A stretch of 63,303 bases of DNA, filler included, from Theionarchaea archaeon (GTDB taxonomy: Archaea > Methanobacteriota_B > Thermococci > Methanofastidiosales > SZ-28-30), in the NCBI GenBank assembly GCA_018992565.1. It is 6 parts of 6 records of this genome, joined end to end, with 100 filler letters (N's around TTAATTAATTAA, not from the genome) between each part and the next. Parts side by side here need not be neighbours in the genome. Positions count along the whole stretch, not along the records: positions 1 to 11,174 come from JACVGW010000084.1; 5 more parts are not named here. The stretch is one strand, 5' to 3'. Below the pieces are notes generated by a model, which saw only the letters and a program-made list of their open reading frames with translations, searched no databases and was not told where the DNA came from. Both the position numbers and the translations under genes were made by a program. Positions 1 through 58,068 of the stretch are shown here, in pieces. Positions within the stretch are counted from its first letter, which is position 1, and each line of letters begins with the position of its first letter.

Positions 1-944
1 ACGGTATCGTCCATGACAATTGAAGACTCCACCTCAGTGTTCTTGATGACAACATTGTTTCCAATTGATGTGAAAGGTCCAATATACGTATTGGGGCCAA
101 TAACACAGTCTTCTCCAATGATGAGGGGCCCTCGTAGCACAGTGCCCTCTTTCACTTGAGTTCTGGGGCCAACCTGGATTCTCCCCCTTACTTCCGCTGT
201 ATCATCAATTTGACCCTGAATATCCCTCTTGATACCATCCAAAACCAGGTGGTTTGCTTCAAGTATGTCATCAGGTTTTCCTGTATCCTTCCACCAATCG
301 CCTGTAATTGACGCATTGACGGGATACCCTTTATCCAGCAACCACTGGATGGCATCAGTAATCTCCAGTTCATTTCGCCAGGAAGGAGTTATACTCCTGA
401 CAGCTTCAAAAATGGTCTTTCTAAACGCATAGATGCCCACGAGAGCCAGATCTGAAGGTGGCTCCTTGGGTTTCTCAATTAATCTAATGATCCCTCCACT
501 ATCATCCAGCTGGGCAACCCCGAACAAGTGGGGATTCTTCACATGGGTCAACAAAATGCTAGCCTCACACTGAGAATTCTGAAAATCTTTCACAAACGCA
601 GTAATTCCTTCCTTAAGGAGGTTATCCCCCAGGTACATAACAAAAGGTTCTTCACCAATGAAATCCTTAGCAATTAAGACAGCGTGAGCCAGTCCTTTAG
701 GATATTCCTGTTCAATGTATGTAATGGAGGCTCCCCATCTCTCCCCTGTTCCAATGGTTGCCATGACCTGGTCTTTATTGGGACCGTAGATAACACCGAT
801 ATCAGTGATGCCTGCTTCCACCAGGTCTTCAATAGCATAGAATACGATGGGCTTATTTGCTATGGGTATCAGCTGCTTCTGGCTGGTATAAGTAATGGGA
901 CGGAGACGGGTTCCAAATCCACCGGTCAGCACTAATCCTTTCAT
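1..944 (-). CDS. rfbA: Glucose-1-phosphate thymidylyltransferase (3' end runs off window)
   Basis: Manual translation from ATG 944: MKGLVLTGGFGTRLRPITYTSQKQLIPIANKP (nucleotidyltransferase GxGTRLxP motif). Start overlaps the rfbD stop (ATGA). Absent from the ORF track because it is open at the window edge. Confidence 0.92.
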   Translation of the reverse strand, partial: MKGLVLTGGFGTRLRPITYTSQKQLIPIANKPIVFYAIEDLVEAGITDIGVIYGPNKDQVMATIGTGERWGASITYIEQEYPKGLAHAVLIAKDFIGEEPFVMYLGDNLLKEGITAFVKDFQNSQCEASILLTHVKNPHLFGVAQLDDSGGIIRLIEKPKEPPSDLALVGIYAFRKTIFEAVRSITPSWRNELEITDAIQWLLDKGYPVNASITGDWWKDTGKPDDILEANHLVLDGIKRDIQGQIDDTAEVRGRIQVGPRTQVKEGTVLRGPLIIGEDCVIGPNTYIGPFTSIGNNVVIKNTEVESSIVMDDT

Positions 945-1765
945 TGGGACACCTTTTTCATTTCCTGTAACCCTTCCTTCACAGATAGCAAAGGTGTATC
1001 TATGATTGCTTTTATCTTTTGTGTTGAGAGGGATGAATCTCTTGGCCGTGGTGCCTTCTGGGCCAGGTCTTCACTTCTTACAGGAGTCATGAAAGAGTCA
1101 TCCAGCCCAAAAATATTGGCTATTTCACGTGCAAAGTCATATCTCGTAATTCGTTCTGTGCCAGTGACGTGATAGAGCCCCATCACATCCTTTTTACAGA
1201 GGTCAAGTAGTACCTCAGCAAAGTTGTCAGCCAGGGTAGGACAGGTATACTGGTCAGTGACGATCCTGATGTGCTTTTCACTCTGTAATTGGCTGAGAAC
1301 CCAGGTGACAAAATTCAGGTGGTGATGCCATCCGTACAAGACGCTGGTTCTCACTATAAGAGAATCATCCATTTCTTGAACGATTCTTTCTCCCTCCAAT
1401 TTTGTCATCCCGTAGTAATTGATGGGATTGGGAGTATCTTCTTCAGTGTACATCTTGCCTGTGCCGTCAAACACGAAATCTGTGGATATATAAACCAATT
1501 TTGCATGAAGGCTTGCGCAGGCTGTCACTACATTTTCCGTTCCCGTGACATTTGTCAGCCAGGCTTTGTCTTTCTGAGTTTCACATAGATCCACATTGGT
1601 GAAAGCTGCACAGTGAATGACCATGTCTGGAGCCACCTCCTGGATGTAGTGGATGATTTCAGGTGTAGTTATGTCTATTCTCCGGTCAGGATATGTCTGA
1701 AACCTGGATTTGGCCAGAATTTTGCTTCCCAGGAGGCCTGTATGTCCAGTAATCATCAACTTCAT
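941..1765 (-). CDS. rfbD: dTDP-4-dehydrorhamnose reductase
   Basis: ITGHTGLLG Rossmann motif, HCAAFTNVDLCE, ISTDFVFDG, YGMTKLEGE (YxxxK), APRPRDSSL. Coupled to rfbA. Confidence 0.93.
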   Translation of the reverse strand: MKLMITGHTGLLGSKILAKSRFQTYPDRRIDITTPEIIHYIQEVAPDMVIHCAAFTNVDLCETQKDKAWLTNVTGTENVVTACASLHAKLVYISTDFVFDGTGKMYTEEDTPNPINYYGMTKLEGERIVQEMDDSLIVRTSVLYGWHHHLNFVTWVLSQLQSEKHIRIVTDQYTCPTLADNFAEVLLDLCKKDVMGLYHVTGTERITRYDFAREIANIFGLDDSFMTPVRSEDLAQKAPRPRDSSLSTQKIKAIIDTPLLSVKEGLQEMKKVSQ

Positions 1766-1851
1766 TGCAGGAACTTATGAAAATGAACTTAAAGGCTTTG
1801 CGCAGAAAGGGCAACTCTCTCGCGTGTCTGGTCTGTCCAGATAACGATGGA

Positions 1852-2973
1852 TTACGCTCGAACGAATATCCTCCCATCCCCCTTCTTGATCACAAACGAT
1901 GTACCAATGATTCCTGTAGTTACATCAGTATATTCTTGATCAAACCTCACTGTAACATCAGCATAAGGGCAGCTCACCACAATCCCCTTTTCGAATTCTC
2001 GCCAGTAAGCATTGTCCCTCAAGTAATAGGAATCAAGTGGAGGCCCCAAATCCACATCATACTCGGGGAACCACCATGCCTGGCCATGGTCTCTGGGACC
2101 AAAATCGTAGGTGAAGTATGTATTATCATTGAGCAGACTCAAGGTGAGCCCCAGTCTCATTTTCGAAAGATCTTTCATTCCGGTATCACTGGTGTCCACA
2201 GCATACACGATGATATACGGGCTCTGGGCAGCTTCCAGGCCTGTCTCATAGTCGGCGCCCCACTCCCCCAGGAAATTTTCCATAACATACCCATCAAAGT
2301 ACTGCGCATAGGGGTCTATGGACTCGAAGTCTTTGCCCGCATTGACGATAATGAGCTTGATGTGGGCATCTGCCATCTCTCTAACATCCTGGAGCAGAGT
2401 CTTGGTGGTTGAAACCCATTCTTCATCACTGATAGCGTCGGGACACCACGACACATCCAGGAGCATATCAATGATGATCCCGTCATGCTGAGGCTGGTCC
2501 AGAATTGCCTTGTAAGCTGCAAGAACGAGAGCTCGCCATCCGGGGTTACGGGGATCCATTGCATAAATCTCCTGATGACCCCACTGTTCTGATGCCCACC
2601 CGAAAGCACACTTCTCATTGTCTGCTTTCAGATACATGTCTTCAGTCACGTTGTGGGGAGTCTCTGCACTGGCTATTGTCTCCAGGAAAGTCATCCATTC
2701 TGGATTATCATACACCCAGTTGAGAGTGATTCCCGCCAGTATTACAACAGAAGGAGCGTTCTCCTTGAGAGCAGTCGCTTCTTCTGGTGTAACCCATCCT
2801 GTCATGACGAGAGTATATGGATGGCCCGACCTGATGAGTTCATCTTTCTTGGAAAGCCAGCTGGCAATGCGAGGAGTACCAGATTCCACGCTCAGAGAAG
2901 GCTGTGGCACTTCAGACTGGTTAAGGCAGCACGAAAGAAGTAGTATGACCATAACCAGGGGGGCTGGTTTCAT
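1852..2973 (-). CDS. Secreted lipoprotein, putative glycoside hydrolase (TIM-barrel, GHL15/GH114-like)
   Basis: Lipobox-like LLLSCC, then MDPRNPGW, DGIIID, DGYVMENF and WWFPEYDVDLGPP motifs typical of these hypothetical hydrolases. Confidence 0.55.
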   Translation of the reverse strand: MKPAPLVMVILLLSCCLNQSEVPQPSLSVESGTPRIASWLSKKDELIRSGHPYTLVMTGWVTPEEATALKENAPSVVILAGITLNWVYDNPEWMTFLETIASAETPHNVTEDMYLKADNEKCAFGWASEQWGHQEIYAMDPRNPGWRALVLAAYKAILDQPQHDGIIIDMLLDVSWCPDAISDEEWVSTTKTLLQDVREMADAHIKLIIVNAGKDFESIDPYAQYFDGYVMENFLGEWGADYETGLEAAQSPYIIVYAVDTSDTGMKDLSKMRLGLTLSLLNDNTYFTYDFGPRDHGQAWWFPEYDVDLGPPLDSYYLRDNAYWREFEKGIVVSCPYADVTVRFDQEYTDVTTGIIGTSFVIKKGDGRIFVRA

Positions 2974-3125
2974 AGGTATTTCTGCTTCTCCAGCTTAATA
3001 AAGCTTCTGATCCGCTCTTTATATGTAGAACGTGTCTCTCCATGAGACCGGCTTCATGTCGATGTTCATGATTATCCCTCCGCAACAGACTAGCCAGTCA
3101 TCAAGCAGAATCAGAGGCTTCGGGA

Positions 3126-3186
3126 GAATAGAAGAGAAACGGGAGAAATCATTGCTGTAGGGACTATCCCGTATTCTCTTCTATTC
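3126..3186. repeat. 19-bp inverted repeat (one bulge, 22-nt loop)
   Basis: GAATAGAAGAGAAACGGGA (3126-3144) pairs with TCCCGTATTCTCTTCTATTC (3167-3186). Confidence 0.7.
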
Positions 3187-3393
3187 AGAAACTGCCCATC
3201 CGGGCAGAGGGAGGTTGAAGTCCACCCAACCCCTGTGGGTTAGCAGGATGTCTACCTCATCTCCTCCTATTCATCACTCTTCTTAAGCTTTTTGCTAAAA
3301 TAATACGCCAAATATCCAAGAAATAGAGAAATAACGAACTTTCATGGCAAACATTTTTATGCAAGTTATCAAATGTGAAATGAGGTGGAAATA

Positions 3394-3600
3394 ATGAACA
3401 AAATACTAGTCTTTCTCTTGATAGCTGGACTTGTGCTGGCAGGAACCGTTTCTGCTGTACAAGAAATCAGTGAACAGGCAAGTACTGAACCTCCTGCCTT
3501 CTCGGGAGAATCCCCCACAACCCTGAGCGATGATGGATCTACAAGTAATCAAGGAACCTCTGGAGGAGGTGGCTCTGGTTCAGCTCCAATACCTGGCTAG
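3394..3600 (+). CDS. Small secreted Ser/Gly-rich peptide (68 aa) ending GGGGSGSAPIPG
   Basis: TTTTTAT box at ~3354-3360, SD GAGGTG at 3382-3387, ATG 3394. Sec signal MNKILVFLLIAGLVLAGTVSA. Stop overlaps the stop of the convergent gene (CTAG 3597-3600). Confidence 0.75.
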   Translation: MNKILVFLLIAGLVLAGTVSAVQEISEQASTEPPAFSGESPTTLSDDGSTSNQGTSGGGGSGSAPIPG

Positions 3601-4559
3601 ATATCCTTTGACCAGTGGCACTCAAAAATCGCATGTCTTTCACTCTTGACAATTCCTTTTTTCTTCATTTTTTCCAGGAGACAGTGTAGTTTCATTTGAG
3701 ATACATCCCATATGATGCCATCTTCCCTCATGGAAGATCTCTCCACGTATGCGTGCACAAGGAGGTAGTCCTCCACTTTTACAAAAAATGTAGAAGTAGG
3801 TAGCTGGGAAAATACTTCAATGACCAAGTCCTCATACTCGGTCTCAATCAGGAACAAATATGGATCATACTCAGACATTCCCTTTGGAAAAAACCTGACA
3901 GCCACCAGACAGCTGTGGGGCAGGAGAGTGAAGAACTCGTCGATCTTGTGCGAAGAGATTTCATGTTCCTTCATGATGGGGGTATAGGCTTTCCGACCGT
4001 CATATTTCAACTCTCTGTACAGGATCTCGAAATCAGGGTCCCACCACTCCAGCACCTCGTTCCAGCGACTTCTCACCAATGTCCGTGGTTCATACTCTCT
4101 CAGAGAACATGTATCGATGCGTTCTCTCATCAACTCAGTTGATTCGTCCCAGGAACCCGTCAGAGAATATGCCACGTGGTAATCAGATCGGGGCCCTTCA
4201 GCCAATATTTCTCCCTTGATGTCCATTTCCTTCTTTGCGATAACCCACAGATTACCAAATCCTCCAAGAACAGCATGATGTACCACATTCGTATCGTCTT
4301 TGTATTTTTTATATACTTCAAATGGATCATCACAGTGCACGAGATACATGTATTCTCTGAAGTTCCTGTAGGAATGTTTTCTCAGTTGAGGAGCAGTCAC
4401 AATCCCTGATTCCAGAACGTCACGTATCCTCTTACTTGCAGTATGTCTGTCAATCCTCAAGGAGCTGGCGACATCCTTGATATTGACACGGAAGTTCTGG
4501 TAGAACTCGTTGTAGATTGTCCAATTATCCTGTAATGTTCTATAGCCAAGGTGTTTCAC
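3597..4559 (-). CDS. Putative transcriptional regulator with two HTH modules (Lrp/AsnC-like duplicated architecture)
   Basis: N-terminal HTH-like NIKDVASSLRIDRHTASKRIRDVLESG and a second module ELKYDGRKAYTPIMKEHEIS (Lrp-like LxxDGR). Confidence 0.55.
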   Translation of the reverse strand: MKHLGYRTLQDNWTIYNEFYQNFRVNIKDVASSLRIDRHTASKRIRDVLESGIVTAPQLRKHSYRNFREYMYLVHCDDPFEVYKKYKDDTNVVHHAVLGGFGNLWVIAKKEMDIKGEILAEGPRSDYHVAYSLTGSWDESTELMRERIDTCSLREYEPRTLVRSRWNEVLEWWDPDFEILYRELKYDGRKAYTPIMKEHEISSHKIDEFFTLLPHSCLVAVRFFPKGMSEYDPYLFLIETEYEDLVIEVFSQLPTSTFFVKVEDYLLVHAYVERSSMREDGIIWDVSQMKLHCLLEKMKKKGIVKSERHAIFECHWSKDI

Positions 4560-4871
4560 AGAATCTCTCCTGTACTTACATTATTATGGAATATATAAAT
4601 CTTTCTCCTCTTTTTCTTCAAAAAATTTCACATAGTTCATTATAATGGTAAAAAAGTTTCAAATAGAATTTTTGCGTCTTATATATTCCATTATTGTGCA
4701 TATTTTTCTGTTAACGGAGGAACTCCGGATGGGTATCTATGATGGTGCGACAGCATCCCGGTTCCAAGAACATTTCAGAATGTCACTCATCCATTATGCG
4801 ATGAAAGCCTGAACCTGCAAAAGAGATTTATACTCCCAACCAGTAGAATGCTGCAACTCAAAGGTGTAAGA

Positions 4872-5705
4872 ATGAGATCGATTTCTTTGACTCCCCTGGA
4901 GATTAAAGCCCTTGTGGAAGAGGTATCACTCCAGAATCTCAGGAAAGATCCTCTGACCAACCCGTATGAATCCTTGAGAGTGAAGGATAGGGATATTTTC
5001 TTCGTCCTGCATACCACAGGGAAGATGGTTTTTCAAGAATCCAAGGGGATGGATGATTTGCTGAATACTATTCTCATTAAAGAGTCCAAGGTCCTCATTG
5101 GCACTGATGAAGCAGGAAAAGGAGAGTGGTACGGCCCTCTGGTAGTAGCGGGAGTGGGGTTGACTCCTGATGAAACCCTTGAACTGAGAAAGCTGGGTGT
5201 TGGTGACAGCAAGGGACTATCATCTTTCAGAATATATGAAATCGGCCAGGTGCTGAGGTTCTCGCACATTGAACGAGAGGTTAGAATTCTCCCGCCTGCA
5301 ACTTACAACAAAGTGTATGAGCAGTTCAAGAAAGAGGGGAAAACACTAAATGATATCTTGTCCTGGGCCCATACAGAGGTAATCCGTGATATACTTGGAA
5401 GGATGAAGCCAGATGCAGCCAGAGTGGTTATCGACAAGTTTGATGTAGGAGAAAAATCCATTGGAGACCGATTGAGCACTTTGGAGAGATTCAACGTCAC
5501 CATCATTGAGAAAACACAGGCCGAATCGGAGGTTGCAGTGGCAGCAGCCAGCGTTCTGGCCAAGTACATTTTTGATGAACAGGTGCGGACGCTCAACGAG
5601 AAGTTTGGCCTTGATCTGAGGACTATGAGTCCTGAAGAAATCCCAGAGAGAGTCTTGCCTTCAGTGGCTAAGCTCCACTTTCGCAATGTGCGGAAACCTG
5701 GCTGA
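4872..5705 (+). CDS. rnhC: Ribonuclease HIII
   Basis: ~75-aa N-terminal (TBP-like) extension, then IGTDEAGKGEWYGPLVVAGV, GVGDSK, VIDKF, AVAAASVLAK and AKLHF motifs of RNase HIII. Confidence 0.8.
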   Translation: MRSISLTPLEIKALVEEVSLQNLRKDPLTNPYESLRVKDRDIFFVLHTTGKMVFQESKGMDDLLNTILIKESKVLIGTDEAGKGEWYGPLVVAGVGLTPDETLELRKLGVGDSKGLSSFRIYEIGQVLRFSHIEREVRILPPATYNKVYEQFKKEGKTLNDILSWAHTEVIRDILGRMKPDAARVVIDKFDVGEKSIGDRLSTLERFNVTIIEKTQAESEVAVAAASVLAKYIFDEQVRTLNEKFGLDLRTMSPEEIPERVLPSVAKLHFRNVRKPG

Positions 5706-5863
5706 TGCAGTGATTCATCCAAAGACAGTAAGTTTCATGTATTACGCACTTCCCAGATTCAAGAGCGGTAGAGGGCTTTCCTCACATTAGGGCCGAAGAG
5801 TGACTGCGGAAAGGGAAAAGACAAAAAGTAAAAAAGAGATCGTTCTGCCCTGATGCAGCTGAA

Positions 5864-5947
5864 CTAGAATGCCATGAAAATGGGGTCGCCACCACCAGTG
5901 GATGCCACACAGGTAGTGTCCCTGTAGTCCTCAACTCGGGGTTCCAT
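5864..5947 (-). CDS. Putative RiPP precursor peptide, copy 4: MEPRVEDYRDTTCVASTGGGDPIFMAF (27 aa)
   Basis: Manual translation. SD GAGGTGA upstream of ATG, TATA (CTTATAT) ~47-53 nt upstream, T-rich tract downstream. Paralogous to three adjacent copies. Confidence 0.88.
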   Translation of the reverse strand: MEPRVEDYRDTTCVASTGGGDPIFMAF

Positions 5948-6292
5948 TTTTCTCACCTCTGTAGATCTTATACCTTTACTTGCACTTTCCTAGATATAAG
6001 CGTATCGAAGTAATACGATTGATCTAATACTCACATGAAGAATAACACATTTCATATAGGAATTATGACTATAAAAAATGTGAACTCCATATCTTCCAGA
6101 TTTCCAAAGAACGGAGACGTACTGATGCACTCTTTAGTAGAGAATATCTGCAATATTGACCAAAAACAACGAAAATAGAAGTAAGATGTACTGCACAGCA
6201 CCATCAGGATCTTCAAACGAACTCTTTGAGAGTCCTATGATATAGTATTAAAGAATAAAAGAGAAATAGACTTAGGAAAGTTGAGAAACAGA

Positions 6293-6367
6293 CTATGCTT
6301 CTAACATGAGTCCGCCAGTGGATGCAACACAGGTAGCATCCAAATAGTCTTCAACTCGGGGTTCCAT
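6293..6367 (-). CDS. Putative RiPP precursor peptide, copy 3: MEPRVEDYLDATCVASTGGLMLEA (24 aa)
   Basis: SD GGAGGTGA, TATA TTTATAT at 6414-6420, T-rich terminator. Synonymous codon differences versus the other copies. Confidence 0.9.
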   Translation of the reverse strand: MEPRVEDYLDATCVASTGGLMLEA

Positions 6368-6708
6368 CTTTTTCACCTCCGTAGATCTTATACCTTTTCT
6401 TGCACTTTCCTAGATATAAACTTACCGGCAGAGTGTGATCGATCACATAGTTACTTGAAAAACAACACATTTTTCATAGATAACCTTGCCTTGGAAAATG
6501 TGAACCAACATGTCTTCCAAATTCCAGAGGATTGAGGATTCATACTAACGCGGTTATTGGCAAAGCACATCTGAATATCAGCCAGAGATAGAAAAGCAGG
6601 ATAGACTACACAGCATCGCCAGGATCTTCATGAGACTCATTGAAAACTCTATGAAGATAATCATTAAAGAATAAAAAAGAAGTAGATACAGAAAATCTGA
6701 GAAACAAC

Positions 6709-6783
6709 TTACGCTTCTCTCATGACTCCACCAGTGGATGCAACACAGGTAGCGTCCAGATAATCCTCAACTCGGGGTTCCAT
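6709..6783 (-). CDS. Putative RiPP precursor peptide, copy 2: MEPRVEDYLDATCVASTGGVMREA (24 aa)
   Basis: SD GGAGGTGA, TATA (AAAGCTTATAA) at ~6830-6840, T-rich terminator. Confidence 0.9.
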   Translation of the reverse strand: MEPRVEDYLDATCVASTGGVMREA

Positions 6784-7034
6784 TTTTCTCACCTCCTTTA
6801 CTGTAGCACATTTTTATTTGGATTGCTTCTTATAAGCTTTTTGGGAAATTGCGATCTTTCCAATGCCTGCTAAGAAAAGCATGAAACGATACATCAATCA
6901 AGACATGGGGTGTTAATTCGACTCACCTTACTTGAGGTGCAAAAACTTCTGGCATCATGAGCCCGCGGCTGCTACCCCCACCAAGAGTCACTATCGTATG
7001 AATAAAAAAAGAGAAAAACGAAGAAACAAGTTAC

Positions 7035-7112
7035 TTATGCCATCAGGACTGCGACGCCAGCTGTGGATGCAACACAGGTAGCATCCAAATAGTCTTCAAC
7101 TCGGGGTTCCAT
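7035..7112 (-). CDS. Putative RiPP precursor peptide, copy 1: MEPRVEDYLDATCVASTAGVAVLMA (25 aa)
   Basis: SD GGAGGTGA, TATA (AAAAACTTATATAT) at ~7157-7170, T-rich terminator at ~7000-7028. Confidence 0.9.
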   Translation of the reverse strand: MEPRVEDYLDATCVASTAGVAVLMA

Positions 7113-7563
7113 CTTTTTCACCTCCTCTTACTTCCTTCCCTTCCATTTGATCCTGGATATATAAGTTTTTTGTAGGATTGCAGTGTTCTTGGTTTTCTCC
7201 TCATGAGTACATCCAGGTCTATTGACTGGTATGGGCCATCAGAATGTGAGAGACGAAAGTGTTTCTTGATATCACCTGAATTTCAACATGTGGGTGAAGA
7301 CCAATCTGGAGGTGAGAGCACACCTGATTCCATCCAGGTGTGGAAAAAGGGAAAAAAATCCTAAATCTGTTCGTACTATGAGGTTTCTTAAAGGTTGGCA
7401 TTTCCATTAGGTTCTTCCATGTACTATGAATCGAAAATAAGGTCTTTCAGATTTAAGGGAGAACTTCTGAAATCCAGACTATTCATGTTTATTTTACGAT
7501 TGTAGATACGAATAAAATAGGGCATCCCACACGCACTAAAACCTGGAATAACGAATTACAACT

Positions 7564-8274
7564 TCACATTTTTCTCATGTCGAGACATACCTTCCACACT
7601 CCTGGAGCATAGGAACCTGCATTTCTCGTATTCAGAATCTCATAGCCCGGGATATTGGCCAACCTGCTCTTGGTGGAAGCCCACGTGCAGTAGTGCAGAT
7701 ACCCACCTGCTTTGACAAAATCTGCACTCGAACAAAACAATTATGATTGCAGGGCTGAGGTACAACCACTCTGTCAGCTTTTCCTCCCTGATACTCATAA
7801 CTATCCCCCAACACTGGAGTGATACTTCCCCTTATCCTGTTCACTTCGATATTCTCCGTCGGGAAGGAGAATACCTTCTCATTTTTCTCCACTGTCACTA
7901 CATTCACATTCTTCTCCATTGCCAAAACCAGAGGTATGATGCCCACTCCTGCAAATAAGACCATAATCTTCACTTTCTCCGTTACTAAAAACTTCATTCG
8001 CTGACGTTCTGTTTTCTCCCTTTCTAAAAAAACAGGTTTCTCCAGCATCCAAGCGAACCTGTATCCCATATTCAGTGTGTACCGTTTCTGTCCTGCTGCC
8101 AACTAGAATTCTCAAGCTCTACTGACGAAACTCCCCACAGCGCCCCAGTCTTCGTACCACCACACTCACACGGGAATCTCTCTGGCAGACAGTCTCAGCG
8201 ATCTCGTGTTCCCTGTGTTCCAGTTCTGCTGGTACATATACAACCGCGATATCTCCAATACAGGTGCACCTCAT
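7564..8274 (-). pseudogene. Disrupted Trm5/Taw2 (Met-10+) family tRNA methyltransferase
   Basis: MRCTCIGDIAVV...GEFRQ, in-frame TAG at 8119-8121, then RILVGSRTETVHTEYG. Frameshift near the T-run at ~8025-8032 to ERQRM...LFAGVG. A second frameshift precedes the C-terminal GSYAPGVWKVCLD. Confidence 0.75.
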
Positions 8275-8621
8275 CTCTTCACGATTTCTTCAAAGAATAT
8301 TTTCAGCCCCGCTTCTGCCTTCTCCTTCTTATCTGCCACCAGAACAACCATGTCGTTGTCCCCACATGCGAATTCCTTTTCTATCTGGTGTCTCTCTCCT
8401 ACAGATATGCCAAAAGAAGGCAGTTCGTCAGTTGTAATGAATCCTTTGACCCCTGTTTTTTTCTCCATCGTCCTGGCAATGTCTTCAGCAAACGCGGGGT
8501 CTTTGGTCAGGACATTCTTGGAATTTTCTACTTTCTCTGCTAAGACCACTCCTCCTCTGGAGATTATTCCCTTTATAAGGCCAGATTTGGTCTCTGAAAA
8601 CAAATCGGTTATATCTTTCAT
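8271..8621 (-). CDS. Standalone GAD/GatE-insertion-domain protein
   Basis: DITDLFSETKSGLIK...GGVVLA...GVKGFITTDELPSFGIS...DMVVLVAD resembles the AspRS-like insertion domain of GatE. No catalytic domains present. Confidence 0.7.
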   Translation of the reverse strand: MKDITDLFSETKSGLIKGIISRGGVVLAEKVENSKNVLTKDPAFAEDIARTMEKKTGVKGFITTDELPSFGISVGERHQIEKEFACGDNDMVVLVADKKEKAEAGLKIFFEEIVKR

Positions 8622-8695
8622 GAATTCAGTGATTCTTTGCTATATTTAAGGTTTATCCCGGTCGATCCAGTGCAGCCCATGAAGACCTGGTCATA

Positions 8696-9319
8696 TCATT
8701 GATAGACAGTGGAGCCAACCTGTGTACTGATGACGTAGAGAATCTCGCAGGCTCCAATACCGTTGTCCGTCAAGGAGGTACTCGTCTTGATATATAATGA
8801 ACCGTCATAATAGATGTCCACCAGAAGCCCCTCTAAAATCACCTTCTGTCCCTTTCTGACATTGTAGAGTGCAGTCAGGACATTTTGGTTGGCAGGAATC
8901 AAATGGATATTGACGAAAGACGTCAGCACTAGAGGATCATCTACAGGGCTATGTGCCTCATACGTGCATATACATACTCTGTTGGTCTGGTTAAAGGTGG
9001 CATACTCGAGATAACGATCTTGGGAAAGCTCTCCCCATACAACACAGAAATCGAGAGGTGCTATATCAGAGTCTTCATCAGTGTAGTGTACAGTAGATAC
9101 CACCAGGACATGGGCTTCATAGGTGGCAACGGGAACGAGGGACACCTCCCGCTCTTTCGTGTGGAGTATGATGGGGGTTCCCTGGTACTGGACCTGAATG
9201 GGTTCTCGAGACGTGTCAATCTGCCCTCCTCTATCTGACTGAGGGTTCATGGCGACATTGACGCACCCTATTACCAGCAAGAGGAGAAGGACAACCCATG
9301 GCCTGGGAAAGAAACTCAT
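8696..9319 (-). CDS. Hypothetical exported/lipoprotein
   Basis: N-terminal hydrophobic segment ending IGC, DIAPLDFCVVWG, NIHLIPAN and GACEILYV conserved-looking motifs. TATA upstream. Confidence 0.65.
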   Translation of the reverse strand: MSFFPRPWVVLLLLLVIGCVNVAMNPQSDRGGQIDTSREPIQVQYQGTPIILHTKEREVSLVPVATYEAHVLVVSTVHYTDEDSDIAPLDFCVVWGELSQDRYLEYATFNQTNRVCICTYEAHSPVDDPLVLTSFVNIHLIPANQNVLTALYNVRKGQKVILEGLLVDIYYDGSLYIKTSTSLTDNGIGACEILYVISTQVGSTVYQ

Positions 9320-9479
9320 ATGCGATACCTCACGAGCACGGATATAAATACTTTGTCTGGGAGTGGCTGGCAGGAGATGGAAGCAGTTACGCAGAGGAGA
9401 AGCTGCAGGATGTGAACGTGAGAGACGTGAAAAAAAAGGGGGGAAAACCTTATATATTGTGTGCCGGAACTAAGTGGCA

Positions 9480-9551
9480 GCGGTTGTAGTGTAGTGGCTA
9501 TCACTCGAGCCTGCCACGCTCGCGACCCGGGTTCGAATCCCGGCAACCGCA
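9480..9551 (+). tRNA. tRNA-Gly (GCC)
   Basis: Acceptor GCGGTTG/CAACCGC+A, anticodon arm CGAGC-CTGCCAC-GCTCG, T arm CCGGG-TTCGAAT-CCCGG. TATA box CTTATATAT ~25-30 nt upstream. No intron. Confidence 0.96.
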
Positions 9552-9699
9552 TGGATTTATAGAGGGACCTGGAGGAGTAGTTACAGTTCTTGAAGATGTC
9601 TTCTTGGTTGTTGTTGTCAGTATTTCAAGAGGTCAATTCCACATACCTCGCAATACTGCGGGGCGTAATTTTCTTAACTTCTCTCCCACTCTTTCCTCT

Positions 9700-11025
9700 A
9701 TGGAACACAGGCTCTATCCAGCTTTACAAGAAGGGTATGGTATATATGTCACTCCTGACGGAGGGTATTTCTTTGAATATGATGTCTGCAGCAAAGCCAA
9801 GAAGCTGATTTCCCAGAGAGAGACCGTGAATGTGGAAGCATGTTCCATTCTAGAACTCTGTTCTGGTCAAAACACTGTGGATGACATTGTTGCTATTTTA
9901 GAGAAGAAATACGAGGATATTCCCGAGGATTTTCCCGTGCAGGTGAGATCATTCCTTGATGGACTGGTCAGCAAAGGTTATATCCAGTATGTTACTACTC
10001 CGGGGGTTCAATCTACCATTAAAGGATGTACTGACTTCTTTGTCCCCACCAGCATTCTCCTGGAGGCAACGCATGAGTGCAATTTACATTGCGAACATTG
10101 TTTGCTGTGTGCAGGCCAGCCCCTCCCTGATGAACTGTCTGTAGAGCAGTACATTCCCATACTGAAATCTCTGGTAGAGATGGGAGTACGAAAAATAAAC
10201 CTCTCAGGGGGAGAATTCCTGCTCAAGGAAGGATGGGAAACCCTTTTCCACTTCTGTGTCAGTAGATGCGTTACCAATGTACTCACCAATGCAACCCTGG
10301 TGACTGATGAAATTGCAGATATGCTTACAGCATGTGATCAGGTGCATGTCAGCCTCTATGGGAGCGCCGGGGCCACCCACGATGAAGTAACAGGACACAA
10401 AGGATCTTTTTACCAGACCATACGTGGTATCACCCAGCTCACTGAACGAGGGAGTTATGTTGGTGCTTCAATTTCCATCATCCCTTCAAATTACAGTGAA
10501 TTCGAGTCAATGATACAGCTATGTACCTCCCTGGGATGTAGTATTGCCAGAGTGGGCATCGTGCTGCCCATGGGGAGAGCTCGGCTGAAACAGTGGACCC
10601 TCACCGGGTCTCAGAAGAGGGTAATTGAAACCAGCATGGAAAAGCTTCAGTGCGATATTGAAGTCACGTGGGAAGAAGAACAGCTTGAACATGGAGGAAC
10701 ATGCGGAGCTGGTGTGTCTACCTGGGTCATAGCTCCTGACGGTACAGTATATCCTTGTGGCGTTCTGAGGATACCCCTTGGGAACGTGATGACTGATACA
10801 GTAGAAGAAATCTGCAGGTCACCTGGTGTGGCTTTCATGCACCAGTTGATTGCCCCTTGTGAAGAGATGTGCGGTGACTGCCCCTATCTGTTCATCTGTC
10901 GGGGATGTCATGCTCGGGCTTTCATGTTTTGTTCGCAGGTGGACACATGTCCATGGACAGAGCAATTTGAGACTGCACCTCATCCTTTCCATGAGTTCAT
11001 TCAGGACGCATCAAAGACTTCCTAG
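9700..11025 (+). CDS. Radical SAM/SPASM peptide maturase with N-terminal PqqD/RRE domain
   Basis: RRE-like ILELCSGQNTVDDIVAILEKKY...VRSFLDGLVSKGYI, CNLHCEHC (CxxxCxxC), SGGE, SPASM CGAG...IAPDGTVYPC and CGDCPYLFICRGC. Probable start ATG 9700 (ORF track starts at 9604). Confidence 0.88.
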   Translation: MEHRLYPALQEGYGIYVTPDGGYFFEYDVCSKAKKLISQRETVNVEACSILELCSGQNTVDDIVAILEKKYEDIPEDFPVQVRSFLDGLVSKGYIQYVTTPGVQSTIKGCTDFFVPTSILLEATHECNLHCEHCLLCAGQPLPDELSVEQYIPILKSLVEMGVRKINLSGGEFLLKEGWETLFHFCVSRCVTNVLTNATLVTDEIADMLTACDQVHVSLYGSAGATHDEVTGHKGSFYQTIRGITQLTERGSYVGASISIIPSNYSEFESMIQLCTSLGCSIARVGIVLPMGRARLKQWTLTGSQKRVIETSMEKLQCDIEVTWEEEQLEHGGTCGAGVSTWVIAPDGTVYPCGVLRIPLGNVMTDTVEEICRSPGVAFMHQLIAPCEEMCGDCPYLFICRGCHARAFMFCSQVDTCPWTEQFETAPHPFHEFIQDASKTS

Positions 11026-11078
11026 GGTTCTAAAAAGAAAAAAAATAGAGGAAATAGTCAATTGGAATCGAGGTCGGG

Positions 11079-11174
11079 TCACGGGTTGGGTCTGTCAGGA
11101 CATTCGATAAACCTGGGCATGCACTCAGTGGGGCGGTATAACCCAGATCCGACCAGTGGTTTTTCCCATTTCAT
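11079..11174 (-). CDS. Putative RiPP precursor MKWEKPLVGSGLYRPTECMPRFIECPDRPNP (31 aa; starts exactly at contig end)
   Basis: Manual translation. WxxP leader-like motif and two EC motifs (CX6C). Convergent with the RRE-rSAM gene, T-rich terminator at ~11031-11050. Upstream SD not visible (contig edge). Confidence 0.6.
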   Translation of the reverse strand: MKWEKPLVGSGLYRPTECMPRFIECPDRPNP

Positions 11175-11274
11175 NNNNNNNNNNNNNNNNNNNNNNNNNN
11201 NNNNNNNNNNNNNNNNNNTTAATTAATTAANNNNNNNNNNNNNNNNNNNNNNNNNNNNNNNNNNNNNNNNNNNN
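11175..11274. other. Artificial contig-join spacer (N-TTAATTAATTAA-N)
   Basis: Six-frame stop linker flanked by Ns. Same pattern at 22001-22100, 32617-32716, 43165-43264 and 53239-53338. Internal contigs decrease in size (10726, 10516, 10448, 9974 bp). Confidence 0.97.
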
Positions 11275-19417: not shown

Positions 19418-20119
19418 GATGGGACTTCTATGGCAGAGTATAAATGATTTTGCAGTGACCACAGTGTCTATCAAGTGATTCTCATACTTGATGTGGAGCA
19501 TTCAGGGGCCCTCAAACCCTGGAAAGGTCTTCACTGACTTCTTTCTAGTTCATGCATCCCTTATCAGGTCCTTCTCTGGCGGGCAGTCATTCCATTCTTC
19601 AAAGGGTTGCATCATGATGATTGAATGGTATCTTGAAGTCCCACGCTCCTCACACATGACGAACACACTTTTATGTTCACATAGACATGCCTGCATTGAG
19701 ATAACCATAAAGTACGTGAGATGAAAAAGGCAGGCCTGCCATAGAAGCTCCATTTATTTCTATAGACTATACTTTCACATGAGTCGAATAGAACTGACCA
19801 AAGATTCTTAAACAACAACAACGCAACGAGATCATGGATTGCAGAAAAGTCATTATCGCCATGATGGCTTTCCCTTTCCTGTACGAAAGAATAGAAGAGA
19901 AGGGGGAACAACTCTGAAAACGATTTCTTGGGGAGAAAAGAACGTATTTCAGCCAGATATTGAGAATCCTATGAGCATAGTCAAGAACGTGGCTTTTGAA
20001 ATGAAAAAAAGATCCCTTCNNNNNNNNNNNNNNNNNNNNNNNNNNNNNNNNNNNNNNNNNNNNNNNNNNNNNNNNNNNNNNNNNNNNNNNNNNNNNNNNN
20101 NNNNNNNNNNNNNNNNNNN

Positions 20120-20411: not shown

Positions 20412-21623
20412 TCATGTTGAGCTACGTCCGGCTAACGCATCTTTCTTCTTGTACTCTTGAAAAATCCTGTCAACCCTCTCGGTTACGTCTTCTGCTTCAG
20501 TCTCTGGGTCAAAAGAGCACTGTGGATCCGGCATGAAGGGATCTCCATAGGTCCCATAGGAAATGCAGGATGCGCCTCCCATACAGGTGAAATTGAGTCT
20601 GTTATCTACGTTGAACGGGCATTTTTGACACTTCCCCTTCATGTACACATTTTTCCTCCTCATTTTCCACAAGAAAGGATGGTTCCATATTTCTTCAAAG
20701 TTCTGGGTCAATAAATTACCTACAACAACAGGCATCCTTCTGCAGGCATAACACGTGCCATCAGACATGACTGCTATGTACCGTCTTCCCACCTGGCAGT
20801 GATTTCCATTCTTGTTAACCAGTTGAGCCATAGATGAGAGACACTCTCCCGTGCAGATGACTGGCCAATCACACCTCAACCTGTTTACATGAACGACTGG
20901 GTTGCCTGAGCCCATGTGCTCAAGTGCGAAATCTGCATCTATTCCTAATTTGGTGTACAATTCTCTGACCTCTTCGGGTGTCAACATCAATGTCTCCATT
21001 TCCTTTCCCCTTCCAAAGGGGACTAATCGAGTAATCAGAAGACATCCACCACCCAGTTCCCTGACAAAATCGGTCATCTCAAATGCTTCTTCATAGTTCT
21101 GTCTGTGAACTACATAGTGGATATGAGTGGGAATTCCCGCATCTCGCAATGCTGAAACAGCCTGCAAGGACTTTTCAAAGGTACCTTTCCCCCTTGCTTT
21201 CTCATGAGTCTTAGAAGTGGCTCCATCGAGACTGATCTGAACAAAATCCAGAGTCCTGTATGTGGATAGTCTCTCAGCAAGTTCGCGGTCAACGAGTGTT
21301 CCATTTGAGAGAACGGATGTCAATATCTCCCTATCATTGCCATATTCCTCAATGTGATCGAGGAGAGGCCAGAAACTGGGACTTAGCAAAGGTTCTCCTC
21401 CACTCAATGGTACGATCGGCGTAACACTCCACTTCTCTGTGGTTTCCAGAAACCTGTTCAGTATCATGATCAGCTCATCAGTTGATGCCTCAGATGTAAT
21501 AGAATCATCATCGTAACAGTGAGCACATCGCAGATTGCATTTTTCTGTAATTTGGTACTGGAATGTGAAAAACCGTGACATATCTTCCGCTTTTCGTAGT
21601 CCACTATCTTCAGCTGCTTTCAC
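20412..21623 (-). CDS. Radical SAM/SPASM domain protein (no RRE)
   Basis: CNLRCAHC, SGGEPL, QISLDG, SPASM CQVG...DGTCYAC, CQKC...CMGGASC and DPQC. Confidence 0.88.
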   Translation of the reverse strand: MKAAEDSGLRKAEDMSRFFTFQYQITEKCNLRCAHCYDDDSITSEASTDELIMILNRFLETTEKWSVTPIVPLSGGEPLLSPSFWPLLDHIEEYGNDREILTSVLSNGTLVDRELAERLSTYRTLDFVQISLDGATSKTHEKARGKGTFEKSLQAVSALRDAGIPTHIHYVVHRQNYEEAFEMTDFVRELGGGCLLITRLVPFGRGKEMETLMLTPEEVRELYTKLGIDADFALEHMGSGNPVVHVNRLRCDWPVICTGECLSSMAQLVNKNGNHCQVGRRYIAVMSDGTCYACRRMPVVVGNLLTQNFEEIWNHPFLWKMRRKNVYMKGKCQKCPFNVDNRLNFTCMGGASCISYGTYGDPFMPDPQCSFDPETEAEDVTERVDRIFQEYKKKDALAGRSST

Positions 21624-22000: not shown

Positions 22001-22100
22001 NNNNNNNNNNNNNNNNNNNNNNNNNNNNNNNNNNNNNNNNNNNNTTAATTAATTAANNNNNNNNNNNNNNNNNNNNNNNNNNNNNNNNNNNNNNNNNNNN

Positions 22101-32578: not shown

Positions 32579-33152
32579 AGACACTGTGGCCGGGTATCGT
32601 CCTTGTGCTCTTGCTTNNNNNNNNNNNNNNNNNNNNNNNNNNNNNNNNNNNNNNNNNNNNTTAATTAATTAANNNNNNNNNNNNNNNNNNNNNNNNNNNN
32701 NNNNNNNNNNNNNNNNATCAGACACTGGAAATAAGAAATTTCCACCTCTTTGACTCGGTAGACTGCCATATCAAAGACGCTGTAGTCACAGAATTACAGC
32801 GATTTCTGGAATACCTGGGGGGGCAGCATATTGAAGCCAAAAATGGACCAGAGTGGCTTCAGCCAGGATGTTGACTCTCCCTCTTTCTGGAGTCACGTGT
32901 ACTGTGATCCTGATCCTCTGGGTATAGACCTCAATCCAGGCCACGTGTCTCAGGGTTGTACCATATCCTTCCAAAGGCGTTGCATCACGACGCAGTTCTT
33001 CTACAGAAAAAGAATATAAGGATGAGAACGAAACTATAATGAGAACACGATGGAATGAGTGAAAAACGAATATTCCAGACCGCAACTGAGCAATGTATGC
33101 CAGATAGAGGAACATACAGCCGTATGCGTGAACACCTGACGGAGGGAAGAGA

Positions 33153-43164: not shown

Positions 43165-43264
43165 NNNNNNNNNNNNNNNNNNNNNNNNNNNNNNNNNNNN
43201 NNNNNNNNTTAATTAATTAANNNNNNNNNNNNNNNNNNNNNNNNNNNNNNNNNNNNNNNNNNNN

Positions 43265-53234: not shown

Positions 53235-53378
53235 GAAGNNNNNNNNNNNNNNNNNNNNNNNNNNNNNNNNNNNNNNNNNNNNTTAATTAATTAANNNNNN
53301 NNNNNNNNNNNNNNNNNNNNNNNNNNNNNNNNNNNNNNAACCTTCAACCTTTTTAAACACGCGGAAAGACACGTATTC

Positions 53379-57489: not shown

Positions 57490-58068
57490 ATGCACTATGG
57501 AATTGAGGTTGTCCCTTTTGGGGAGTTTGGAGATCCCNNNNNNNNNNNNNNNNNNNNNNNNNNNNNNNNNNNNNNNNNNNNNNNNNNNNNNNNNNNNNNN
57601 NNNNNNNNNNNNNNNNNNNNNNNNNNNNNNNNNNNNNTGCTTGTCAAGGTGTGGTCAGGGAACCCTGTAACGTATGAGGGAAACCACTACACTGTCAAAG
57701 GCATGACTGCTGTTTCCACACCGATACAGACCACGATTCCCGTGTGGATTGGGGGTGAAAGCAGGGCTGCGCTGCGCAGAGCAGCTCACTGGGATGGCTG
57801 GATCATAGGAACCATCAATGAGAAGTGCGAGATCATAAGGTCGCCAGAAAAGCTCAGAGAAGAGATTTCGCATATTCAAGAATATCGCGCTCGCGATGCT
57901 ACATTTGATGTGGCCATTGATGGGATATCCAGGCCCGGCAATAAAGATATTGAACTCGTGCACCAGTATGAGGAGGCGGGTGCCACATGGTGGTTCGAGG
58001 GGATCTTCGGGCTGCGGGGAAGCAAGGAAGAGATGCTAGATCGCATCATCGCTGGACCACCCACGTGA
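57490..58068 (+). CDS. Luciferase-like (LLM) flavin/F420-dependent oxidoreductase, interrupted by scaffold gap 57538-57637
   Basis: VTYEGNHY, PVWIGGESRAALRRAAHWDGW, EAGATWW. Confidence 0.8.
   Translation: MHYGIEVVPFGEFGDPXXXXXXXXXXXXXXXXXXXXXXXXXXXXXXXXXXLVKVWSGNPVTYEGNHYTVKGMTAVSTPIQTTIPVWIGGESRAALRRAAHWDGWIIGTINEKCEIIRSPEKLREEISHIQEYRARDATFDVAIDGISRPGNKDIELVHQYEEAGATWWFEGIFGLRGSKEEMLDRIIAGPPT

What the first reader, a model, noticed from the sequence alone, without database searches (positions are those of the whole stretch)
5864..7170. Array of four unannotated paralogous micro-peptide genes (MEPRVEDYxDxTCVAST + variable tail): candidate new archaeal RiPP precursor family
Seen: a stretch that is empty in the ORF track holds four minus-strand ORFs: MEPRVEDYLDATCVASTAGVAVLMA, ...TCVASTGGVMREA, ...TCVASTGGLMLEA and MEPRVEDYRDTTCVASTGGGDPIFMAF. 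Each has a GAGGTGA SD, a TATA box at the same distance (~47-53 nt upstream of ATG) and a T-rich terminator. In the conserved 17 codons most differences are synonymous (GAG/GAA, GAC/GAT, TAC/TAT, TTG/CTG, GTG/GTT, ACT/ACA), which indicates selection on the peptide, while the C-terminal tails differ in sequence and length. Established: a constant leader with a hypervariable core in multiple copies is the hallmark of combinatorial RiPP precursors, and Cys is the donor in radical SAM thioether (sacti/ranthipeptide) crosslinks. Inference: these are substrates of a maturase making a small library of modified peptides such as signals or antimicrobials. I do not recognise the family.
Basis: partly seen in the sequence, partly recalled or inferred. 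Interest (0 to 1): 0.92.

Follow-up and report, generated by a model that had tools for sequence, protein, structure and literature searches.

The report
Archaeal Cys–Met mini-peptide gene family
Four tiny neighbouring genes in an uncultured sediment archaeon belong to an undescribed family of 22-32-residue peptides with one fixed cysteine and one fixed methionine, and they are most likely raw material for enzyme-modified peptides, although the enzyme has not been pinned down.

Summary
Four minus-strand ORFs of 24-27 codons (ATG at 7112, 6783, 6367 and 5947) share a 17-codon head, a ribosome-binding site, a TATA element 52 nt upstream and T-rich tails. Changes in the head are mostly synonymous.

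Database searches add 47 more distinct peptides of the same type. The four that carry an organism name come from Theionarchaea and Methanofastidiosia MAGs. No Pfam model, NCBIfam model or paper covers the family.

A new point is that 47 of 47 normal-length members have exactly one Met in the otherwise variable tail, 8-14 residues after the invariant Cys. The commonest spacing is 8.

The enzyme 2.6 kb away has an RRE, a radical SAM core and a SPASM domain. Its nearest solved relative is SkfB, which links Cys4 to Met12 in its substrate. This fits a sactipeptide-like Cys-Met ring.

The enzyme-peptide link is not shown:
- Only 4 close homologues of the enzyme exist in 5.8 billion proteins.
- None of them shares a contig length with a called peptide gene.
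- Unrelated genes lie between the enzyme and the peptide array.
- A second small Cys ORF (11079-11174) sits right beside the enzyme.

Verdict: a real, new peptide family. RiPP precursor is the best reading (about 0.45), and the maturase is unproven.

The parts
7001..7164 (-). Peptide gene copy 1 as a unit. TTATATAT 7157-7164, SD GGAGGTGA 7118-7125, CDS 7035-7112 (25 aa, tail AGVAVLMA), T-rich tract 7001-7027.
6668..6835 (-). Peptide gene copy 2. TTATA 6831-6835, SD 6789-6796, CDS 6709-6783 (24 aa, tail GGVMREA), T-rich tract about 6668-6705.
   Evidence: A second allele or paralogue in three metagenomes differs at 6760, 6763 and 6766, all synonymous.
6251..6419 (-). Peptide gene copy 3. TTATA 6415-6419, SD 6373-6380, CDS 6293-6367 (24 aa, tail GGLMLEA), T-rich tract about 6251-6290.
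5811..5999 (-). Peptide gene copy 4. TTATA 5995-5999, SD GAGGTGA 5953-5959, CDS 5864-5947 (27 aa, tail GGGDPIFMAF), T-rich tract about 5811-5840.
   Evidence: A 188-nt contig of a metatranscriptome run lies on 5765-5952.
9700..11025 (+). Candidate maturase (link unproven). N-terminal PqqD-like RRE (about 9838-9984), radical SAM core with C159-x3-C163-x2-C166 (about 10066-10521), and a SPASM domain with 7 invariant Cys (about 10702-10950). The likely start is ATG 9700; the ORF opens at TTG 9604.
   Evidence: Pfam. NCBIfam best hits AlbA and SkfB, both far below cut-off. Homologue alignment and invariant Cys. PDB best hit SkfB.
11079..11174 (-). Rival small ORF of 31 aa with two Cys, convergent with the radical SAM gene and 54 nt from its stop. 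Its ATG is the last three bases of the contig.
   Evidence: An RNA-run contig covers 11051-11174 and runs on upstream with GGAGGTGA four bases before the ATG (loose end read by hand). No family hit.

Best explanation
The four ORFs are separately promoted genes of an undescribed peptide family found in Theionarchaea and Methanofastidiosia. The family has an acidic head (M-E/N/T-P-R/K-V/I-E-D/E-Y-x-D), an invariant block (S/T/A)-T-C-V/I-A-S-T/S-G/A-G, and then a tail of 6-15 variable residues that always holds one Met. The most likely function is as precursors of ribosomally made, enzymatically modified peptides. In this reading the head docks on the recognition (RRE) domain of a radical SAM enzyme. 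The enzyme takes a hydrogen from a tail residue, most likely the conserved Met, and the Cys13 sulfur closes a thioether ring of 8-14 residues. Several gene copies with different tails then give a small library of ring sizes and sequences. In this genome the SkfB/AlbA-like RRE-radical SAM-SPASM enzyme at 9700-11025 is the candidate. What is shown: the genes, the selection on the peptide, the family, the Cys and Met invariance, and the enzyme's domains and nearest relatives. What is inferred: binding, the cross-link, its partner residue, leader removal, export, and the enzyme-substrate pairing itself.
For: - Coding and selection: synonymous bias in the head, and three of three population variants in the copy-2 head are synonymous.
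- Family: 32 hits at E<=1e-3 in 1.84 billion representatives, 31 of them with the motif, and 48 hits in the 5.8-billion set. Together with the window these give 51 distinct peptides.
- Paralogues share contigs elsewhere too: P0027 with P0059, P0044 with P0071, P0039 with P0072.
- Of the 47 peptides with tails of 16 residues or fewer, 47 have exactly one tail Met and 46 have no second Cys. Cys-to-Met spacing is 8 in 21 of them, 9-10 in 5, and 11-14 in 21.
- Enzyme: PqqD/RRE, radical SAM and SPASM domains, with 13 invariant Cys including CxxxCxxC and the 7 of the SPASM motif. The best solved relative is SkfB (9e-43 by profile, 5e-35 by single sequence), with PqqE next at 2e-13.
- SkfB makes the Cys4 to Met12 alpha-carbon thioether of SKF, a spacing of 8 (PMC8172795, passages). 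RRE domains bind leaders as an added beta-strand (PMC6231123, passages).
- The N-terminal domain of the enzyme family is as conserved as its core (0.43-0.50 against 0.48-0.52 identity).
- An RNA-library contig lies on copy 4, while the enzyme gene and the other genes of the 6.2-kb stretch have none.
Against: - No co-occurrence is shown. The enzyme has only 4 close homologues (46-47% identity), all from unnamed metagenome contigs of 2-17 kb. None comes from the named NCBI MAGs that carry peptides.
- No contig length is shared between any enzyme hit and any peptide hit, including at least 16 peptide contigs over 20 kb. This is indirect: the search uses a word index, only the longest contig of a cluster is given, and MAGs are incomplete.
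- The enzyme is on the other strand, 2.6 kb away, beyond a frameshifted Trm5/TYW2-like gene, a lipoprotein gene and tRNA-Gly.
- The contig holds no protease or exporter.
- A 31-aa two-Cys ORF lies next to the enzyme and also has an RNA-library contig.
- The enzyme scores far below the AlbA and SkfB family cut-offs (134 against 850 bits, 130 against 300 bits).
- Sactisynthases are paraphyletic with C-C and C-O forming enzymes, so likeness to SkfB does not fix the chemistry (PMC10288494, passages).
- The RNA evidence is two low-depth unstranded contigs, and DNA carry-over cannot be excluded.
Confidence: 0.45

Rival explanations
1. The peptides are real but are not substrates of the neighbouring radical SAM enzyme. 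A different, unseen enzyme elsewhere in the genome matures them, or they are cut behind the conserved G/A-G pair and exported as short Met-containing signal peptides. On this view the radical SAM enzyme acts on the 31-aa ORF at 11079-11174 or on something beyond the contig end.
For: - The peptide family (51 distinct members, named lineages Theionarchaea and Methanofastidiosia) looks much wider than the enzyme family (5 members).
- No contig length is shared between the two families.
- One MAG has peptide genes on two different long contigs (PVF58_01700 and PVF58_05080), so the genes are scattered.
- The tail begins GG in 38, AG in 7, GS in 1 and GA in 1 of 47. These are the pairs I recall as tolerated at double-glycine leader cleavage sites.
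- The 31-aa ORF is adjacent to the enzyme, has an SD, and has an RNA-library contig.
Against: - An invariant Cys inside a leader that is simply discarded would be unexplained.
- No C39 peptidase or exporter, and no other modifying enzyme, lies on the contig.
- The match between the Cys/Met pair and an SkfB-like neighbour would be coincidence.
Confidence: 0.3
2. The peptides are unmodified small cytoplasmic proteins. Their Cys and Met act directly, for example as soft-metal or sulfur ligands or as partners of a larger protein. The tandem copies are simple duplications.
For: - The block around the Cys is very strongly conserved across two archaeal classes.
- Cys thiolate and Met thioether are classic soft-metal ligands (own knowledge).
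- No dedicated enzyme has been shown.
- The peptides have no signal peptide.
Against: - A fixed cellular partner does not explain tails that vary in length and sequence between paralogues of one genome, while the head evolves almost only synonymously.
- Each copy keeps its own promoter and SD.
- The Met sits at spacings from 8 to 14, which suits a flexible loop closed by chemistry better than a fixed binding site.
Confidence: 0.15
3. The ORFs are not translated. The repeats are small RNA genes or decaying tandem duplications that happen to stay open.
For: The units are tandem repeats of 329-420 nt, and gene callers skipped them.
Against: - Variation falls at third positions.
- About 50 homologues keep the protein sequence and its stop position in other lineages.
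- An SD lies 5 nt before every ATG.
- Rfam gives no match.
Confidence: 0.02

Closest known systems
SkfA / SkfB, sporulation killing factor of Bacillus subtilis (sactipeptide)
   Same: The enzyme's best solved relative is SkfB. Both enzymes have an N-terminal RRE and a radical SAM core. SkfB links one Cys sulfur to the alpha carbon of a Met 8 residues downstream (PMC8172795). The family here has one invariant Cys, one invariant Met, and a modal spacing of 8.
   Different: - The enzyme scores 130 bits against the SkfB family cut-off of 300.
- It has a full 7-Cys SPASM motif where SkfB has a Twitch domain (PMC6231123).
- The peptides are 22-32 aa against a 55-mer SkfA, and no NCBIfam model hits them.
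- No protease, thioredoxin or exporter genes lie alongside.
- The organism is an archaeon, there are several precursor copies, and the Cys-Met spacing varies.
SboA / AlbA, subtilosin A (sactipeptide)
   Same: AlbA is the best NCBIfam hit, aligned over nearly the full length including the N-terminal domain (residues 39-440). It has the same RRE + radical SAM + SPASM layout.
   Different: The score is 134 bits against a cut-off of 850. Subtilosin has three Cys donors (own knowledge); here there is one.
CrpA / CrpC of Methanococcus voltae (archaeal radical SAM thioether system)
   Same: An archaeal RRE + radical SAM + SPASM enzyme that installs Cys thioethers on a neighbouring gene product. One modified motif there narrows to the residues CAGM (PMC13692751, abstract and passages).
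   Different: The substrate there is a large Cys-rich protein with ranthionine (non-alpha) links. Here the candidates are 24-27-aa peptides with a single Cys. Homology between the two enzymes was not tested here.
Combinatorial precursor sets with a constant leader and variable core, such as prochlorosins (recalled, not tested here)
   Same: Many paralogous precursor genes, some scattered over the genome, with a conserved N-terminal part and a variable C-terminal part.
   Different: Those are lanthipeptides made by one LanM enzyme with long Nif11-type leaders. No such leader or enzyme is seen here.

Membership tests
Sactipeptide system (precursor plus sactisynthase) | A radical SAM enzyme with CxxxCxxC, a SPASM or Twitch auxiliary-cluster domain and an RRE, encoded near the precursor | tested here: met
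   Pfam PqqD, Radical_SAM and SPASM domains. Invariant C159/C163/C166 plus 7 SPASM Cys. The enzyme is on the same contig, 2.6 kb from copy 1, on the opposite strand.
Sactipeptide system (precursor plus sactisynthase) | Sulfur-to-alpha-carbon thioether in the product (mass spectrometry or NMR) | not testable with these tools
   Needs co-expression and mass spectrometry.
Sactipeptide system (precursor plus sactisynthase) | Precursor and maturase co-occur across genomes | tested here: inconclusive
   Only an indirect test was possible. None of the enzyme hits shares a contig length with any of the 48 peptide hits, and no enzyme homologue comes from the named peptide-bearing MAGs. Gene neighbourhoods could not be fetched.
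Sactipeptide system (precursor plus sactisynthase) | Leader peptidase and exporter in the cluster | tested here: not met
   None among the genes of contig 1-11174. The contig ends 149 nt after the enzyme gene.
SkfB family (NCBIfam TIGR04403) and AlbA family (NF012164) | Score above the curated cut-off | tested here: not met
   130.2 bits against 300, and 134.2 bits against 850.
Known precursor families (SkfA, SCIFF, other NCBIfam and Pfam peptide models) | A match to any curated peptide model | tested here: not met
   0 families at E<=10 for the 4 window peptides and for 4 database members.
Double-glycine-leader peptides | A GG, GA, GS or AG pair at the end of the conserved part | tested here: met
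   47 of 47 tails begin GG (38), AG (7), GS (1) or GA (1). That these are the tolerated pairs is recalled.
Double-glycine-leader peptides | A C39 peptidase-containing exporter nearby | tested here: not met
   No such domain on the contig. The rest of the genome is not held.

The most novel reading that the evidence does not exclude
This is the first archaeal sactipeptide-type family. It would be a lineage-wide (Theionarchaea and Methanofastidiosia) set of very short precursors in which one Cys is tied to one Met across a loop of freely variable length (8-14 residues) and sequence. That amounts to a natural ring-size library made by an SkfB-like enzyme, or by a still unknown Cys-Met cross-linking enzyme in the lineages that lack it.
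Probability: 0.35. Interest if true: 0.8.

Novelty: new variant of a known kind. Interest (0 to 1): 0.62.

Why it matters
Modified peptides of archaea are almost unstudied. A genome-mining paper I read in passages says radical SAM RiPP clusters are predicted in archaea but that few products have been identified (PMC12144867). This family is small, easy to synthesise and comes with a built-in hypothesis: one donor Cys, one acceptor Met, and a candidate enzyme that can be co-expressed. If the hypothesis holds, it extends sactipeptide chemistry to uncultured sediment archaea and offers an enzyme that tolerates many loop lengths. If the enzyme link fails, a conserved Cys...Met peptide family with no known partner remains as a defined open problem.

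Tried and rejected
- Own genome is not held, so no genome-wide search could be run.
- The two genome-contig scans found nothing. One used the enzyme. The other used the peptides, with patterns built from the window copies alone; these would miss the commoner D-S-T-C form.
- The metagenome scan with the enzyme alignment returned one close relative, on a 1467-nt contig without flanks (L001). The other 7 loci are 24-33% identical. The peptide profile finds nothing in any of L001-L010.
- A viral-contig scan with the peptide alignment found none.
- tblastn of P0036 against plasmids found none.
- The search for homologous proteins refuses queries under 40 aa. I then used an alignment led by a 44-aa over-called member.
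- The genome search could not reach archaeal genomes. Metagenome loci are not held, and a viral locus gave a handle without kin and controls without handles.
- The AlphaFold2 model of the enzyme from 5 sequences was poor (mean pLDDT 45.9). I ran no fold search on it.
- Earlier notes of this scan hold nothing on these sequences.
- No RNA-run contig lies on copies 1-3 or on the enzyme gene. Absence of contigs proves nothing.
- Plus-strand ORFs in two spacers both begin MKNNTF. They diverge with many amino-acid changes and different stops, so I read them as duplicated non-coding DNA.
- A shared operator upstream of the peptides and the enzyme: none is evident.
- Catalytic-site proximity profiling (PMC10288494) was not applied, because the reference residue tables sit in figures and supplements that I did not see.
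Full report
**1. The observation**

The minus strand of 5864-7112 holds four ORFs of 24-27 codons:
- 7035-7112: MEPRVEDYLDATCVASTAGVAVLMA
- 6709-6783: tail GGVMREA
- 6293-6367: tail GGLMLEA
- 5864-5947: MEPRVEDYRDTTCVASTGGGDPIFMAF

A profile built from the four and run over all 2765 six-frame fragments of the window finds these four only (E about 1e-19). The next hit has E 0.58.

The 90 nt upstream of the four copies align without gaps. TTATA, GAGGTGA and ATG are invariant columns. This places a TATA-like element 52 nt and a Shine-Dalgarno sequence 5-12 nt before each ATG. Runs of T follow each stop codon.

The units repeat at 420, 416 and 329 nt. Rfam has no match in 5600-7600.

**2. Selection on the peptide**

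Nine nucleotide positions vary in the 17 shared codons, and six of them are third positions.
- Copies 1-3 differ from one another by 1-5 synonymous and 0 non-synonymous changes.
- Copy 4 adds Leu9Arg and Ala11Thr.
- Counting minimum events, 7 synonymous against 3 non-synonymous has a binomial p of 0.0027 under neutrality.
- The head is 84-98% identical between copies. Most flanks are 52-77% identical and the tails 45-75%. The one exception is the 60 nt upstream of copies 3 and 4, at 88%.

**3. The setting, corrected**

The window is eight contigs of a metagenome-assembled genome, joined by 100-nt N linkers that start at 11175, 20020, 22001, 32617, 43165, 53239 and 57538. Only 1-11174 is real context. 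The 'DNA polymerase DP2' ORF at 11278 is a fragment at a contig edge.

The genes of contig 1-11174 are:
- two sugar-nucleotide genes
- a GHL15-like gene
- a weak-HTH protein of 320 aa
- RNase HII (4848-5705, +)
- the four peptide genes (-)
- a Trm5/TYW2-like methyltransferase gene broken over at least three frames (7564-8621, -)
- a 207-aa protein with a lipoprotein-like signal and no family (8696-9319, -)
- tRNA-Gly (9480-9551, +)
- the radical SAM gene (9700-11025, +)

**4. The family**

A profile of the four ORFs, searched against 1.84 billion cluster representatives, gave 32 proteins at E<=1e-3. Thirty-one carry the motif. One, P0047, is an unrelated 472-aa repeat protein.

A second search of the 5.8-billion set with a 30-sequence alignment gave 48 hits.

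Many hits are over-called upstream. The extra residues read GGEK, EVKK and the like, which is the translated SD.

After trimming to the shared start Met, 54 rows (50 database proteins plus the 4 window copies) give 51 distinct peptides.

In the 30-sequence alignment, the start M, P, D, T, C, A, S and the second G are invariant. E, Y, V and T are kept in at least 90%.

Four of the 48 hits carry an organism name. One is from a Theionarchaea archaeon, held under three NCBI accessions. Three are from Candidatus Methanofastidiosia archaeon. Earlier unchecked notes of this scan also call this genome Theionarchaea and describe other radical SAM-peptide cassettes in it.

Paralogues share contigs in other assemblies too, and one MAG has members on two different long contigs.

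No description of the family was found:
- No Pfam or NCBIfam model matches the window peptides or four database members.
- No paper in the library holds any of four motif strings.
- The two papers that hold both 'Theionarchaea' and 'radical SAM' are, by title and abstract, on methanogenesis evolution and annotation pipelines.

**5. A new feature: one Met**

I set four rows aside because their tails exceed 16 residues:
- P0037 and P0042 have a Met at the usual place followed by a long extension.
- P0043 reads like a frameshift of the AGAGGLAMAP type.
- P0053 has Ser in place of the Cys.

Of the remaining 47 distinct peptides:
- 47 have exactly one Met in the tail.
- 46 have no second Cys.
- The Cys-to-Met distance is 8 in 21, 9 in 4, 10 in 1, 11 in 8, 12 in 9, 13 in 2 and 14 in 2.
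- The Met lies 0-11 residues, mostly 1-5, from the C-terminus.
- The tail opens with GG (38), AG (7), GS (1) or GA (1).

At 2.5% Met per residue and independent tails, the chance of this would be about 1e-33. The sequences are related, so that figure overstates the case. Even so, the residues around the Met are otherwise free.

Short matches with loose ends in three metagenomes add further tails when read by hand: AGAGALAMA, AGDSTVRMAF and GGKM... Each again has one Met.

**6. The neighbouring enzyme**

The ORF at 9604/9700-11025 has PqqD (RRE), Radical_SAM and SPASM domains.
- Thirteen Cys are invariant among its five family members. They include C159-x3-C163-x2-C166 and the seven Cys of a SPASM motif.
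- Its best NCBIfam matches are AlbA (134 bits, cut-off 850) and SkfB (130 bits, cut-off 300), so it belongs to no curated family.
- Among solved structures SkfB is far ahead: 9e-43 by profile and 5e-35 by single sequence, aligned over residues 107-375 of 441. PqqE follows at 2e-13, and CteB reaches only 1e-3.

SkfB installs the thioether between Cys4 and the alpha carbon of Met12 of its substrate. It is strict for the Cys and tolerant at the acceptor (PMC8172795, passages). Its RRE is expected to bind the leader as an added strand (PMC6231123, passages).

So two independent facts point the same way. The peptide family keeps one Cys and one Met, most often 8 residues apart. The adjacent enzyme's nearest characterised relative makes exactly such a Cys-Met link.

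**7. Why the pairing is still unproven**

(a) In 5.8 billion proteins the enzyme has only four close homologues (46-47% identity), whether searched alone or as a profile. All are from unnamed metagenome contigs of 2-17 kb. None comes from the named MAGs that carry peptides.

(b) No enzyme hit shares a contig length with any peptide hit, although at least 16 peptide contigs exceed 20 kb. This is an indirect test. The search depends on shared 5-residue words, only the longest contig of a cluster is reported, small genes are often not called, and MAGs are incomplete.

(c) The two are on opposite strands, with a broken gene, a lipoprotein gene and a tRNA gene between them.

(d) A 31-aa ORF with two Cys (11079-11174, -) starts at the very end of the contig, 54 nt from the enzyme's stop codon. 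It is a rival substrate.

(e) Sactisynthases are paraphyletic. AlbA and SkfB sit in a clade with C-C and C-O forming enzymes, so likeness does not fix chemistry (PMC10288494, passages).

(f) No protease or exporter lies on the contig.

The complex predictor was unavailable.

**8. Occurrence and expression**

The stretch 5800-7250 is held almost word for word (share 0.86-0.96) by 19 DNA runs of 7 studies of marine, estuarine, mangrove, soil and sediment metagenomes.

Contigs of three such runs confirm the order of the locus. One 3748-nt contig spans 7434-11174. Contigs break at the repeated heads.

Three variants in the copy-2 head (6760, 6763, 6766) are all synonymous by my reading of the codons.

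One metatranscriptome run gave two contigs on the 6.2-kb stretch:
- The first is 188 nt on 5765-5952. It covers copy 4 from 5 nt before its ATG to 99 nt past its stop, and carries Thr11Ala, the residue of copies 1-3.
- The second is 224 nt, of which 124 lie on 11051-11174 over the 31-aa ORF. It continues upstream with GGAGGTGA four bases before the ATG.

Nothing lay on the other genes. This is a weak hint of transcription of the two small genes. The contigs are unstranded and low-depth, the first was found by selection, and DNA carry-over cannot be excluded.

**9. Reading**

The genes are real (about 0.95). The architecture fits RiPP precursors best: a constant acidic head, an invariant Cys block, a variable loop with one fixed Met, several separately promoted copies, and scattered paralogues.

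I put this reading, with a Cys-to-tail thioether and the SkfB-like neighbour as this genome's candidate enzyme, at 0.45. The rivals are:
- a different maturase, or export after cleavage behind the G/A-G pair (0.30)
- unmodified small proteins that use the Cys and Met directly (0.15)
- non-coding repeats (0.02)

**10. Novelty**

Archaeal radical SAM thioether chemistry has one worked example that I found: CrpC acting on the large protein CrpA in Methanococcus voltae (PMC13692751, abstract and passages). Archaeal radical SAM RiPP clusters are otherwise predictions (PMC12144867, passages).

A short single-Cys, single-Met precursor family in Theionarchaea and Methanofastidiosia is not in the libraries or papers I could search. 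I rate it a new variant of a known kind.

Noticed in passing
window 11175-11274, 20020-20119, 22001-22100, 32617-32716, 43165-43264, 53239-53338, 57538-57637: 100-nt N runs with a TTAATTAATTAA stop linker. The window is eight MAG contigs glued together, so gene order across these points is artificial.
   Followed up: yes
window 11079-11174 (-): A 31-aa ORF with two Cys, convergent with the radical SAM gene. Its ATG is the last three bases of the contig. An RNA-run contig covers it and shows an SD upstream. No family hit.
   Followed up: partly
window 7564-8621 (-): A Trm5/TYW2-like tRNA methyltransferase gene split over at least three reading frames. The pieces hit GAD, TYW2_N_2 and the TRM5-TYW2 MTase domain. 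One metagenome contig has an extra C behind 7721, so some strains may differ in frame.
   Followed up: partly
window 8696-9319 (-): A 207-aa protein with a lipoprotein-like N-terminus (hydrophobic stretch ending in Cys) and no Pfam or NCBIfam family. It lies between the peptide array and the radical SAM gene.
   Followed up: no
window 4848-5705 (+): RNase HII whose Pfam domain starts at residue 84, so it carries an N-terminal extension of about 83 residues with no family.
   Followed up: no
window 20412-21623 (-); 35078-36388 and 36354-37682 (-): Three more radical SAM genes on other contigs of the MAG: one with a SPASM domain and one overlapping tandem pair. Earlier notes of this scan describe other radical SAM-peptide cassettes in this genome.
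   Followed up: no
window 6035-6178 (+) and 6455-6535 (+): Plus-strand ORFs in two spacers both start MKNNTF. They then diverge with many amino-acid changes and end at different places. I read this as duplicated non-coding spacer.
   Followed up: partly
runs X17-X19 laid on window 5898-5948, 6727-6801, 7057-7131: Other organisms or loci in the same metagenomes carry family members with different flanks. One example is an 11,676-nt contig that matches only the 51-nt head. One mosaic contig encodes the insertion-type head (I-P-Y-V-E-E-Y) by my hand translation.
   Followed up: partly
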